Source: Chrysomallon squamiferum
Taxonomy: Eukaryota > Animalia > Mollusca
Assembly (NCBI GenBank): GCA_012295275.1
Contig: CM022667.1
Location: forward strand, 10,974,001 to 11,038,000
Direction of reading: 5' to 3'
Length of the DNA: 64,000 nt
The notes under the pieces were generated by a model that searched no databases, had not been told where the DNA came from, and saw nothing but the letters and a program-made list of their open reading frames with translations. The position numbers and the translations under genes were made by a program. Numbering within the stretch: the first letter of the stretch is position 1; every line of letters begins with the position of its first letter. Below, in pieces: positions 3,506-7,996 of the stretch.

Positions 3506-3644
3506 ATGGAGGGCGCAAGGAAGAGAAAATCGATGAGAGGTCAATGGACGAGGCAGCTGGATTTTGTTCTCTCGTTGGTTGGATTCTGCGTGGGACCCGG
3601 GAATTTGTGGAGGTTTCCGTATTTGTGTAACAGAAATGGTGGAG
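3506..3644 (+). CDS. SLC6 transporter, alternative first coding exon 1a (N-terminus + TM1)
   Basis: Not in the ORF track. ATG at 3506 reads [46 protein letters not shown] and ends G|gtaaaa (phase 1), compatible with the acceptor at 11970. Confidence 0.8.
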
Positions 3645-4700
3645 GTAAAAATTTGTGAAAATAATGTGTGAAAATTATATTTGTCTTTTTGTCTAATATT
3701 TATATTTTTAATAATATTTCATAATGTCTCTCTCTCTCTCTCTCTCTCTCTCTCTCTCTCTCTCTCTCTCTCTCTCTCTCTCTCTCTCTCTCTCTCTCTC
3801 TCTCTCTCTCTCTGTCTCTATATATATATATATATATATCTCTCTCTCTCTCTGTCTCTCTGTCTATCTGTCTCTGTCACTCTCTCTCTCGCTCACTGTC
3901 TCTCTGTCTCTGTTTCTGGCTCTCTCTCTGTCTGTCTGTCTCTGTCACTCTCTGTCTGTCTCTGTCTCTCTCTCTGTCTGTCTCTCTCTCTCTGTCTGTC
4001 TGTCTGATATGTGTCACTCTTTCTCTCTCTCTGTCACTTCCTAGCAATGTCTGTCTGTCTCTCTCTGTCTCTCTCTGTCTCTCTCTCTCTCTCTCTCTCT
4101 CTCTCTCTCTCTCTCTCTCTCTCTCTCTCTCTCTCTCTCTCTCTCTCTCTCTCTCTCTCTCTCTCTGTCTGTCTGTCTGTCTGTCTGTCTGTCTGTTTGT
4201 CTCTCCCCTTCCCTCCCTCTCCTAACTACTCTCTTTAACAGCAACAACTATGTATCTATCTCTAAAAATCCTTACGGCTAAACAACAATTCATTTAACAC
4301 CCACTGTAATTAAGGCTGGGGATGCAATGAACCGATTTCTGAAAAGAAAAAAAAACAACCACCTGTAGTTTACAACTAATTACAACAACAGATCTACCCG
4401 ACACGCATTTCATGCCTGCACGCACAAAGAACAACAACTCCACGCGAGTAATGTGTTTTGAAGAACGCAGACCGTGTTTGTTATGTCTTAGATCAGAGGA
4501 ATGAAGCAACAGACGAGTTGCTGTGGCGGTATGTATGACAGCAGATTAAATTTACCAGATAAACATCATGTAAAAAACTTATCGTTTTGTGAGACAGTCT
4601 GAAATCGACTGACCGCTTCTCCTGGCATAATTAAATGGATGTCAGATGTTATGTGGAAGATGCAGTATGAACTGGTCTCGTCACAACTCCAGCAAAAAAG

Positions 4701-5179
4701 TACACTCGATCCCTGTTTGCCATTTAAAAACATTCGGAAAAAATCCGGGAAATATACGAATATTCTCGAATCTACCGAAATTCGGACACGTCCGTGTGTT
4801 ACGGAAACTTCCGAAATTGCGTCATTTTCTTTGTTTACGCTGGCCTCGTGTTCACTCATATAAAATTATGTTTATTTTATTTATCTTTTTTTTTTTTTTT
4901 TTTTTGTACGTTGACCATGGCAGTATATGATCGCCTTTAAAACAAGCTCGATTTTTTTGCCTATCAAGGTGAATAAAAACTCTGAATTTAAAATAAACTT
5001 GGTTCTGTTCGTTATTCCACATTGTGAATTTTAAGTAAATTTAGTTCTGAATATTCAACATTTGTTAATACTAATTTGTATTATTTCTAACAGTCTTCGG
5101 AAAATCCGGATTTGTTTTTGTTTAATTTTCTGGATAACCCATCCCGCCTTTCTGTTCATTATTTGAGGGGTCGACTGTA
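4701..5179. mobile_element. Tc1/mariner (pogo-like) MITE, about 475 bp
   Basis: Left end TA-CACTCGATCCCT versus reverse complement of right end TA-CAGTCGACCCCT (12/14 match including the TA); TA on both flanks; internal ttcggaaaa(aa)tccgg occurs near both ends. Confidence 0.5.
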
Positions 5180-5425
5180 TCTATGATAAAAAAATAAAAT
5201 AAATGTCACTCAGTATTTACGTAATTTTTTCGGAAATAACTAGCGTTATATTTCGAAAGAATGAGCCGAAATATCTGTATCATTCCCGTATACTGGCACA
5301 CAGACATATCTTATGCACACAAATACATACACAAATAATTATTATATATATGTATAGATACTCCGACAGAGTAAGTGCATATTTGTTTGTGTTGGTGTGT
5401 GTGTAAATATATATATAATTAACAC

Positions 5426-5580
5426 AGAGAGAGAGAGAGAGAGAGAGAGAGAGAGAGAGAGAGAGAGAGAGAGAGAGAGAGAGAGAGAGAGAGAGAGAGA
5501 GAGAGAGAGAGAGAGAGAGAGAGAGAGAGAGAGAGAGAGAGAGAGAGAGAGAGAGAGAGAGAGAGAGAGAGAGAGAGAGA
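5426..5580. repeat. (AG)n microsatellite, representative of many
   Basis: Pure AG run. Similar long (AG/CT)n tracts lie at 2984-3076, 11724-11862, 16802-16967 and 46521-46677, among others. Confidence 0.95.
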
Positions 5581-5869
5581 TACCTTGGTCTAATAAAAAG
5601 GAAATCGTGATAGTATGAGCTGACCACAGACATTATATAAAGAACGCTGAAATCTTTTTTATCAGTACATCGAAATACATGTGCTGATCCTGTCTACATA
5701 TATGGGATGACACTCTCGATTTTGAGAATTTCCAGGAAAGTCAATTAATCACTGTGAAACATTATCTCTGTCAATCTTTTTTTTTTTTTTTTTTTTTTTC
5801 ATTCTATTGATCATAAAGATGTTTTTGTTTTTCTGTATTTAATTATTTTTTATTGACTGAATTTGCAAT

Positions 5870-6440
5870 ACGGTGTCTGATACGCGACGAATGACTTCAG
5901 GCTATAGGAATGTTGTAAACGGACAGAAGTCAGCGTGAACTGGCAAACGTCTTCAGTCTTTTGAAATCGTTGATTATCAGACCATTGGAACTTGTATCAG
6001 CAAATCCAAAATGTTGACAAATCGACGGCGTTTTGGGGATTTCAAGATGAGTACAGGATCGATTAATCGGTAATCGGGCTCCAAGAAAAAGGAGTTCAAA
6101 GGCAAATGAAATTGTTAGAAACCTTCGACAGGTTTCTGTTGTTTGTGTTATAAGTCAGACAATAATTAGAAAGCGTCTTCATGCAGGCTATCTTCATAAC
6201 TCGACGTCCACCCGCCGCCCCCCCAGGGTGGTTCCTCCTATCTCGACAAATTGTCAAACTTCCCACATACGTGAATTGTGGTAAGAACTGTTGTATTCCC
6301 CGCTGGTCACGTGACATGTCTTCAGACGAATCCCTGTTCACTTTGAAAAGTCCTTGACAAGATGGTCGATTCTGGAAACGACGAAATGGACTTCATGCCA
6401 GCATCACAGTGCGATTTCATGATGAAGGTTTTGACTGGCT
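5870..6440 (+). pseudogene. decayed Tc1-family transposase (HTH + start of DDE domain)
   Basis: Across stops and frameshifts it reads LQAIGML*TDRSQRELANVF..., WNLYQQIQNVD, QDRLI..., VISQTIIRKRLHAG, RWSRDMSSDESLFTL. These match the Tc1 AIGML, QDR, TIR.RLH and W..V.FSDES.F motifs. Confidence 0.8.
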
Positions 6441-7788
6441 TGGTCTTTCTTCTTTCTTTCTTTCTTTCTTTCTTTTGTCTTTTCTTTTTACAGTTAGGGC
6501 CAGATATTTACAAATAAAACTCATAGGTTTTTATTTTTATTTTGTACTTTTGGAGCGGGGCACAGAGGAATAACAAGATAAGAATGTCATGATAAAAAGT
6601 TAAAAAATAAAAAGTTAGAACGTCTCGTAACTGCTTTAAAACATATAATGTTTCTTTTATCTGTGTTAAGCAAGTCTGTTTACTTAACACAGCTGTTCCT
6701 GATATCTGAAGAAAGTAATTATATTTCATTTACATTGTCGTATTACAAAAGTACATTTTAGTAGACTTAAAATTAGCTTACAAAACCTACATATAATTAA
6801 GTTTCAGTAAACATATATAATTATATTTAAATAAGTTTATATATAATTATATTTCAATAAACGTATATATATATATATATAGATAGTTATATTTCAATAA
6901 TTTCACATATGAATATATTTAAGTAACATTTATATATTTTTAATAAATGAATACATAATAGTAATTAAATAAACTTACACATACTTATTTTAAATGAATA
7001 TATATAACCTGATTTTTCAATAAGCTTACACATTATTTCAGTAATCACTGTTACACTATGAAGAAATTCCCTGTGTTCACGGTGTTTTGTTTTCTTTGTT
7101 ATGAGATGACCAACCTCTGGCATGACAAAAGCTAACAGTACAATAAACTTTGTTGAAAAAAAACCCCATCCCAATTCCTGTCACAGTCAGAAACAAAAAC
7201 AAAAGAAAACAAATTTGTTGTTTACATTAATTCAACAGTACAGCTCTTTCTACTGACAACGTTTTGGCTATTTGAATCTTTTTTTCAAACCGAGGGCTAG
7301 TTGAGTATTCCGCGAACTGCTGCGCCAGACTGACCGTTGTTAACAGTTCACGTAACCCAGTCGTGTAACACCAATGTTATAAATAATAGCTGGGGTTTTT
7401 TTTTTGTGTGTGTGTGTGTGTGGGGAAATTCTGTTAAATTGGATCGAGCATCGGTGTTTAATTTTGTGTAGCGCGGGATAGCGAATCTTTTCAGCCTTTC
7501 CCGTTCTTTGTTTGAAACGTTCAGTCCAGTTCGGAGGCGAAATTACCGATGAAGAGAAAAAAAAAATGATTTTTGCCTTTGAGTATCGTTTAGATTTGTG
7601 GCGATCTGGTTAACAACTTTTGAGTCTTTGTTTATTTAAAGGAAAAAAAATAAACAAAATAAACCAACAAGAAGCCGTAAAAAAAAAAAAAAAAAGAAGA
7701 AAAAAGAAAGGTTTTATAAAGAAGAAAAATATTTCGTTATTATTCTTTTTCGAAGTGTTCTCACGTTTTTCGTAACAAAAAATAAATT

Positions 7789-7996
7789 ATGTCTGAGGAA
7801 ACGAATTTTTCACTCCCCTTCGAGGCGGGGGCGACAGAGGCGTGTCTTCCCCGGGTCACGGAGAAGGTGGAGGATAGAAACAAGTCGAGGGGGCAGTGGA
7901 CAAGGCAGCTGGATTTTCTTCTTTCGCTGGTTGGATATTGCGTGGGTCCCGGGAATTTGTGGAGATTCCCTTATTTGTGTAACAGAAATGGTGGAG
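7789..7996 (+). CDS. SLC6 transporter, alternative first coding exon 1b (N-terminus + TM1)
   Basis: MSEETNF...[36 protein letters not shown] carries the SLC6 TM1 signature; donor G|gtaaaa, phase 1. Confidence 0.92.

What the first reader, a model, noticed from the sequence alone, without database searches (positions are those of the whole stretch)
3506..7996. SLC6 gene with duplicated alternative first exons that swap a substrate-site residue (TM1 Phe vs Tyr)
Seen: two paralogous first exons (3506-3644, 7789-7996), each with its own ATG and a phase-1 donor, feed one set of exons 2-13. Over their 36 shared codons I count 11 synonymous and 2 non-synonymous differences (V/L; GFCVG vs GYCVG). Homology extends into the leader (gttcggagacgaaa about 3432, gttcggaggcgaaa about 7529) and the intron start. 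Known: this F/Y position aligns with DAT F76 / SERT Y95 / LeuT N21 in the central binding site. Inference: both exons are under purifying selection, and promoter choice gives two transporters (608/631 aa) with different N-termini and tuned ligand selectivity from one gene body.
Basis: partly seen in the sequence, partly recalled or inferred. Interest (0 to 1): 0.8.

Follow-up and report, generated by a model that had tools for sequence, protein, structure and literature searches.

The report
Snail transporter with twin first exons
A likely snail amino-acid transporter gene carries two intact, well-conserved copies of its first coding exon, which differ at a residue lining the substrate pocket, so two promoters likely make two versions of the pump from one gene, although that residue swap is common in this family and likely only fine-tunes transport.

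Summary
Exons 3506-3644 (1a) and 7789-7996 (1b) are paralogous. Each has an ATG and a phase-1 GT donor in frame with one 12-exon SLC6 body (608 and 631 aa). They show 11 synonymous and 2 non-synonymous differences over 36 codons (dN/dS 0.035, p 4e-7). Both exons occur in a second DNA data set about 3% different from the window, where the core of 1a has only silent changes. Against the Gigantopelta aegis orthologue, 1b is ancestral and 1a is derived (short N-terminus, Leu>Val, Tyr>Phe). No RNA run held the locus, so neither junction is shown. The F/Y site is GlyT2 Y207 / SERT 95 / DAT 76 / creatine transporter 68. However, it flips at least 14 times among 115 homologues. In GlyT2 its hydroxyl bonds to S479, which is Gly here. 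A substrate switch is therefore less likely than split expression with modest kinetic tuning. A recently orphaned first exon of a lost tandem paralogue is not excluded (about 20%). The design is known (UGT1 variable first exons, NKCC2 duplicated exon 4). My searches found no SLC6 case covering TM1, and the scan had not noted this on other DNA.

The parts
3362..3472 (+). Leader/promoter-side segment of copy 1a, homologous to 7459-7572
   Evidence: 5 of 300 shuffles reach the score
3506..3644 (+). Coding exon 1a (derived copy): short basic N-terminus plus TM1 with Phe at the GlyT2 Y207 position; phase-1 GT donor
   Evidence: present in run X1 with ATG, frame, Phe and GT kept
7459..7572 (+). Leader/promoter-side segment of copy 1b; holds upstream ATGs at 7549 and 7566
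7789..7996 (+). Coding exon 1b (ancestral copy): 33-residue N-terminus homologous to the Gigantopelta orthologue plus TM1 with Tyr; phase-1 GT donor
   Evidence: its core and part of its N-terminal coding region seen in run X1
11971..12102 (+). Shared exon 2
13180..13543 (+). Shared exon 3 (TM3 with Phe at the GlyT2 Y287 position; extracellular loop 2)
13768..13900 (+). Shared exon 4
14907..15041 (+). Shared exon 5
15539..15642 (+). Shared exon 6 (TM6: Tyr, Gly and Trp at GlyT2 F476, S479 and W482)
16058..16182 (+). Shared exon 7
16580..16692 (+). Shared exon 8
17072..17203 (+). Shared exon 9
17765..17864 (+). Shared exon 10
18743..18843 (+). Shared exon 11
19299..19466 (+). Shared exon 12
20174..20254 (+). 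Shared exon 13 to the stop codon; AATAAA at 20321

Best explanation
The gene holds a tandem duplicate of its first coding exon together with about 110 bases of leader, and each copy is likely transcribed from its own promoter and spliced to the shared exon 2, which would give two SLC6 transporters whose main differences are likely where they are expressed and their N-terminal tails, with the TM1 Tyr/Phe swap predicted to alter transport kinetics only modestly. Shown: the two open exons, their identical donors, one gene body, strong constraint, and 1b ancestral with 1a derived. Inferred: two start sites, both junctions, a Na+/Cl- coupled small-amino-acid substrate (Trp and Gly at GlyT2 W482 and S479, as in GlyT1), and the size of the F/Y effect. 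Mechanistically, Tyr at this position latches TM1a at the inner gate in GlyT2 through S479. Here that Ser is Gly, so losing the hydroxyl likely costs little and would mostly shift inner-gate opening, apparent affinity or turnover.
For: dN/dS 0.035, p 4e-7. Even with both replacements on the 1a branch, P(2 or fewer) is 2e-3 or less under neutrality. A rough model leaves a joint chance of 0.006 if 1a had been dead for the last quarter of its branch. In run X1 the 1a core has 2 silent and 0 replacement changes, against 11 substitutions in 271 unmasked non-coding bases (p about 0.035). ATG, frame and Phe are kept, and a 12-base deletion beside the donor leaves GT intact. Leader homology suggests the promoter side was duplicated too. 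No trace of a second body lies between the copies or elsewhere in the window. The N-terminus of 1b matches Gigantopelta (0 of 1000 shuffles) and that of 1a does not (681 of 1000). F/Y is Y in 93, F in 21 and N in 1 of 115 homologues, with at least 14 changes. The S479 position is Gly in 101 of 115.
Against: No transcript evidence for either junction or start site. The only close orthologue found (Gigantopelta XP_041376806.1) is listed with a single protein and no second isoform. The tests cannot exclude loss of function in the last 10% or so of the 1a branch (joint chance 0.25). The X1 test rests on few sites, and one of its 16 differences is not listed. X1 holds the two exons on separate contigs (701 and 1613 bases), so it shows neither adjacency nor a shared body.
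Confidence: 0.5

Rival explanations
1. Both exons are used, and the Tyr/Phe swap is the selected difference: promoter choice gives two transporters with distinctly different substrate or inhibitor selectivity.
For: The position lines the central site and differs between SLC6 subfamilies (offsets). Creatine transporter F68Y with C144L and A318G gave GABA transport (PMC7148354 passages). SERT Y95F cut APP+ uptake to about 42% of wild type (PMC9649612 table row). The change needed a two-base codon difference. Isoform 1a would be the only one of the 117 aligned rows with Phe at both this site and the TM3 Tyr site; all 13 homologues with TM3 Phe keep TM1 Tyr.
Against: At least 14 F/Y changes on the homologue tree, including between 88-89% identical proteins. 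The GlyT2 partner Ser is Gly here. F68Y worked only in combination. The F/F exclusivity is within chance (about 2.4 expected, and the rows are related).
Confidence: 0.2
2. Exon 1a is the orphaned first exon of a tandem paralogous gene whose body was recently deleted. Its conservation dates from that gene, and it is now silent or only leakily spliced.
For: The family is rich in tandem, lineage-specific paralogues. Gene models with extra TM1 copies occur in other animals (P0150, P0153). A clean deletion would leave no relic exons. Recent death is not excluded. Laying X1 on exons 3-4 gave no long contig, so a second body in X1 could not be tested.
Against: No relic of exons 2-13 between 3645 and 7400 (0 of 12 exons above their shuffles). 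The 1a core stayed free of replacements between the window and X1. Even an orphan with an intact promoter and donor would be expected to splice to exon 2, which merges this reading with the best one.
Confidence: 0.2
3. 1a and 1b are mutually exclusive internal exons spliced from one shared upstream non-coding exon, not two promoters.
For: Weak acceptor-like sites exist (2 near 1a and 7 near 1b at pyrimidine fraction 0.57 or more), one of them (7471) inside the conserved 1b leader.
Against: No acceptor-like site reaches 0.7 near either exon, a level met by 8 of the 12 true acceptors of this gene. The 1a copy of the conserved leader (3362-3472) has no such site.
Confidence: 0.07
4. The duplication is an assembly artefact, such as two haplotypes laid in tandem.
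For: No read or contig spanning both exons was seen.
Against: dS of 0.69 is far above the roughly 4% difference between the window and X1. The flanks are unalignable apart from the leader. X1 holds both copies as separate contigs of similar depth (39.9 and 43.4).
Confidence: 0.03

Closest known systems
UGT1 variable first exons (also protocadherin clusters), PMC3325998 (abstract and passages)
   Same: Tandem homologous first exons, each with its own promoter, spliced to one constant set; the variable exon holds part of the substrate pocket.
   Different: Here there are only two copies; the exon covers just the N-tail and TM1 of a transporter; the copies differ by two conservative residues, not by hypervariable regions; promoters are unshown.
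NKCC2 (SLC12A1) A/B/F exon 4 variants, PMC7818487 (passages)
   Same: A duplicated exon encoding a transmembrane segment of an SLC transporter gives isoforms from one gene; in NKCC2 they differ in ion affinity and site of expression.
   Different: NKCC2 exon 4 is an internal exon chosen by splicing, and 10 of 18 TM2 residues differ with measured effects. Here a first exon is likely chosen by promoter, 2 of 36 residues differ, and nothing has been measured.
Tandem duplicated exon substitution events, PMC9741552 (abstract and passages; one supplement file searched)
   Same: 40 of 236 human events swap N-terminal homologous regions; ion transporters and channels are enriched.
   Different: No 'SLC6' entry in the one supplementary file held (15,271 characters, possibly not the full list). 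This case appears lineage-restricted, not ancient.
GlyT1a/b/c and GlyT2a/b/c N-terminal isoforms, PMC8699752 (passages)
   Same: SLC6 genes with alternative N-termini; a cited title reports alternative promoter use for GlyT1.
   Different: [quoted passage not shown] Here TM1 itself is duplicated and swapped.
Gigantopelta aegis XP_041376806.1 (P0003)
   Same: 68.5% identical over the whole protein; sister row in the tree at support 100; shares the TM1 Pro and TM3 Phe.
   Different: One annotated protein, of the 1b type. Its genomic locus could not be read.

Membership tests
SLC6 / neurotransmitter:sodium symporter (Pfam SNF PF00209) | Match to the SNF profile above the curated cut-off along the protein | tested here: met
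   6 of 6 exon translations tested pass the 27-bit cut-off, spanning profile positions 1-523
SLC6 / neurotransmitter:sodium symporter (Pfam SNF PF00209) | Inner-gate Arg and Trp before TM1 and the unwound TM1 motif | tested here: met
   GlyT2 R191, W194, G210, G212 and N213 positions are kept in both copies; the L211 / LeuT L25 position is Pro
SLC6 / neurotransmitter:sodium symporter (Pfam SNF PF00209) | Na+/Cl- coupled transport | not testable with these tools
   Needs uptake or electrophysiology
Vertebrate-type GlyT1/GlyT2/PROT/GAT orthologue | Clear best match to one subfamily and a canonical substrate site | tested here: inconclusive
   PDB hits of the orthologue are near ties (BGT1 564, GlyT2 544, GAT3 542, GlyT1 537, PROT 530 bits). 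TM6 is GlyT1-like, but the TM3 Tyr is Phe. The tree held no named vertebrate GlyT/PROT/GAT references; the gene groups with Gigantopelta and five Haliotis proteins.
Variable first exon / N-terminal tandem duplicated exon substitution | Two homologous first coding exons in tandem with the same donor phase and one constant region | tested here: met
Variable first exon / N-terminal tandem duplicated exon substitution | Both copies under purifying selection | tested here: met
   (very recent loss not excluded)
Variable first exon / N-terminal tandem duplicated exon substitution | Each exon spliced to the constant region in RNA | tested here: inconclusive
   No RNA holder listed; three RNA runs laid nothing on exon 1a
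Variable first exon / N-terminal tandem duplicated exon substitution | Each exon has its own promoter | not testable with these tools
   Only indirect: leader homology and no strong acceptor
Affinity-specifying duplicated exon (NKCC2 type) | Isoforms differ in measured affinity or selectivity | not testable with these tools
   Needs functional assay; the comparative evidence is mixed

The most novel reading that the evidence does not exclude
An SLC6 transporter whose TM1 gate helix is chosen by promoter. In a remodelled pocket (Pro at the gatekeeper Leu, Phe at the TM3 Tyr), the 1a isoform removes the TM1 Tyr hydroxyl as well. One snail gene would then make two pumps with different substrates or coupling in different tissues: a natural single-residue experiment on the central site, and the first UGT1-style variable-exon design reported in this family as far as my searches reach.
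Probability: 0.2. Interest if true: 0.72.

Novelty: new member of a known kind. Interest (0 to 1): 0.42.

Why it matters
If both joins are real, this is an SLC6 gene that varies TM1, a core gate and substrate-site helix, within one gene rather than by whole-gene duplication. It gives a matched natural pair for asking what the TM1 Tyr/Phe hydroxyl (SERT 95, DAT 76, GlyT2 207) does. The protein also replaces the TM1 gatekeeper Leu, described as completely conserved (PMC4894957), with Pro, and the TM3 Tyr with Phe. It is therefore an informative outlier for transport mechanism whichever exon is used. The architecture itself is a known kind, the case appears lineage-restricted, and the substrate is unknown.

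Tried and rejected
Whole genome: none held, so no genome-wide search for a second body.

RNA: no RNA holder listed. Three added RNA runs laid 0 contigs on 3130-3720 and only short low-identity pieces on 13120-13935. X1 also gave no long contig on exons 3-4; the tool's filter can drop records, so this is uninformative. No stretch spanning exon 1 and exon 2 was laid.

Protein searches for a 1a-type or same-species product: 3 hits among 10 longer candidates, none of 37-121 aa, and 0 of the best 150 HMMER hits with the TM1 Pro motif.

Metagenome scan: 6 loci, none a close relative (43-53% identity on the longer matches) and none with two exon-1 copies.

Idea that bivalve F/Y pairs are alternative isoforms: rejected. 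The two pairs aligned in full differ along their whole length (82% and 89% identity), so they are paralogues or orthologues.

Relic exons: 1 of 39 exon-versus-region tests beat its 30 shuffles, and it was a CAA-repeat match.

Gene conversion as the cause of similarity: rejected, because similarity is confined to non-synonymous sites.

The bacterial promoter scan is irrelevant to an animal gene and was not used.

Literature searches for an SLC6 duplicated or alternative exon covering TM1 and for SLC6 work in vent snails showed none in their listings. Most subscription papers are not held; PMC314283 was not available.

No structure prediction was run, because the sequence alignments to solved structures placed the residues.
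Full report
Observation. The window holds one SLC6 gene on the + strand. Exon 1a (3506-3644) and exon 1b (7789-7996) each start with ATG, translate without stops and end in the same phase-1 donor. Twelve downstream exons (11971-20254) with AG/GT ends complete open frames of 608 and 631 aa. Six of six exon translations tested pass the Pfam SNF cut-off. tblastn finds no other SLC6 exons in the 64 kb. Over 36 shared codons there are 11 synonymous and 2 non-synonymous differences; dS 0.69 (bootstrap 0.29-1.88), dN 0.024, ratio 0.035, Fisher p 4e-7. 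The leaders align over about 110 bases (3362-3472 vs 7459-7572; 5 of 300 shuffles reach the score). The intron starts do not align beyond the donor (39 of 300).

Identity. The closest protein found is Gigantopelta aegis XP_041376806.1, 68.5% identical. On a FastTree tree of 116 rows built without the exon-1 columns it is the sister row (support 100), next to five Haliotis proteins (99). The rows were the window's 1b isoform plus 115 proteins of 560-740 aa; five longer models were dropped, and only the best 120 of 4098 hits were listed. The host is therefore likely a gastropod, and the gene belongs to an expanded molluscan group. Solved-structure hits for the orthologue are near ties among BGT1, GlyT2, GAT3, GlyT1 and PROT, so the substrate is not assignable. 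TM6 is GlyT1-like, with Tyr, Gly and Trp at GlyT2 F476, S479 and W482, which suggests a small amino acid (inference).

Which copy is old. The Gigantopelta protein has Leu and Tyr like 1b. Its N-terminus aligns with that of 1b (0 of 1000 shuffles) but not with that of 1a (681 of 1000). So 1b is ancestral, and 1a carries the short N-terminus and both replacements. 1a has no ATG in the 347 bases before its start, whereas 1b has two upstream ATGs in its conserved leader, a possible difference in translation control (inference).

Is 1a real and alive. Run X1, of unrecorded kind but genomic because its contig runs from leader through exon into intron, holds 1a on a 701-base contig with 16 differences and 1b on a separate 1613-base contig, at depths 39.9 and 43.4. 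This argues against an artefact but shows neither adjacency nor a shared body. In X1, 1a keeps its ATG, frame and Phe. Its core has two silent changes and no replacement, its short N-tail has two replacements, and 271 unmasked non-coding bases have 11 substitutions (P of zero replacements about 0.03). One of the 16 differences is not listed. A 12-base deletion beside the donor leaves GT. If 3 to 8 of the 11 silent changes lie on the 1a branch, neutrality predicts 10-28 replacements against 2 seen. A rough model gives joint chances of 0.006 for a copy dead over the last quarter of its branch but 0.25 for the last tenth, so recent orphaning is not excluded. No relic of exons 2-13 lies between the copies. 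No RNA holder was listed, so the junctions are untested.

What the F/Y change may do. The site is GlyT2 Y207 in a printed alignment, and SERT 95, DAT 76, GAT1 60 and creatine transporter 68 by offsets. For an effect: F68Y with C144L and A318G gave the creatine transporter GABA uptake (PMC7148354, passages). SERT Y95F transports APP+ at about 42% of wild type (PMC9649612, table row). Isoform 1a would be the only aligned row with Phe at both this site and the TM3 Tyr site (within chance). Against a substrate switch: the site is Tyr in 93, Phe in 21 and Asn in 1 of 115 homologues, with at least 14 F/Y changes, including between proteins 88-89% identical. In GlyT2, Y207 hydrogen-bonds S479 and flips away when the inner tunnel opens, and it is not among the residues listed as coordinating glycine (PMC13273173, passages). 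The S479 position is Gly here and in 101 of 115 homologues. I therefore read the swap as a tolerated, probably kinetic change.

Mechanism. Most likely (0.5): duplication of exon 1 with its leader gave two promoters; each exon splices to exon 2; the isoforms differ mainly in expression and N-tail, with modest tuning at the inner gate. Rivals: a real selectivity switch (0.2), a recently orphaned exon of a deleted tandem paralogue (0.2), mutually exclusive exons behind a shared upstream exon (0.07; no strong acceptor near either exon but weak ones exist), and artefact (0.03).

Comparison with the known. It works like UGT1 variable first exons (PMC3325998, abstract and passages) and, if affinity differs, like NKCC2 exon 4 (PMC7818487, passages). 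N-terminal duplicated-exon swaps are a catalogued class, 40 of 236 human events (PMC9741552, passages). The one supplementary file held has no SLC6 entry but may be incomplete. SLC6 N-terminal isoforms are known for GlyT1 and GlyT2 (PMC8699752, passages). Searches listed no SLC6 case with a duplicated TM1 exon. Look-ups of earlier scan notes by words, sequence and nearby place found nothing on this gene. The genome-wide look-up showed unreviewed notes on other duplicated-exon genes in the same genome.

Verdict. A real, constrained duplication of the first coding exon of a molluscan SLC6 gene; likely alternative first exons; functional tuning by F/Y unproven and probably modest. New member of a known kind, interest 0.42.

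Noticed in passing
window 3596-3598 and 7948-7950 (TM1); exon 3, 13180-13543 (TM3); exon 6, 15539-15642 (TM6): Remodelled pocket shared with the Gigantopelta orthologue. Pro stands at the gatekeeper Leu (GlyT2 L211 / LeuT L25), found in 2 of 115 homologues; Phe at the TM3 Tyr (13 of 115); Thr at a TM6 Ser (1 of 115). Across these homologues the Leu position is L 68, V 32, I 7, F 5, P 2, Y 1, although PMC4894957 calls it completely conserved.
   Followed up: partly
P0146, P0148, P0025 (Gigantopelta aegis XP_041359742.1, XP_041359743.1, XP_041359744.1): A different SLC6 gene in the closest relative has three annotated 641-aa isoforms that share the first 128 or 308 residues and swap homologous downstream blocks (97% and 90% identical). 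This is either duplicated-exon splicing or chimeric models across tandem paralogues.
   Followed up: partly
P0150 (XP_060687933.1), P0153 (Branchiostoma floridae), P0152 (Intoshia linei): Other SLC6 gene models contain repeated TM1 exons. P0150 has three, with Ser, Cys and Asn at the same site; P0153 has two; P0152 has two identical copies, likely an artefact. Extra TM1 exons may recur in the family.
   Followed up: no
run X1 contig 3, laid at window 3608-3648: A third contig whose loose end reads like the TM1 of a monoamine-transporter-type SLC6 gene (motif recognised from memory), i.e. another family member in that data set.
   Followed up: no
window 47307-47394, 49862-49964, 50482-50615 (+): Short cysteine-rich open exon-like segments of a probable downstream gene; no Pfam match at E 0.01.
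   Followed up: partly
window 55925-56344 (-): A 140-codon open frame with a weak DAN-domain match (E 0.008, 16.6 bits, below the 22-bit cut-off).
   Followed up: partly
window 24608-24835 (-): A 76-codon open exon-like segment on the opposite strand, without a Pfam match.
   Followed up: partly
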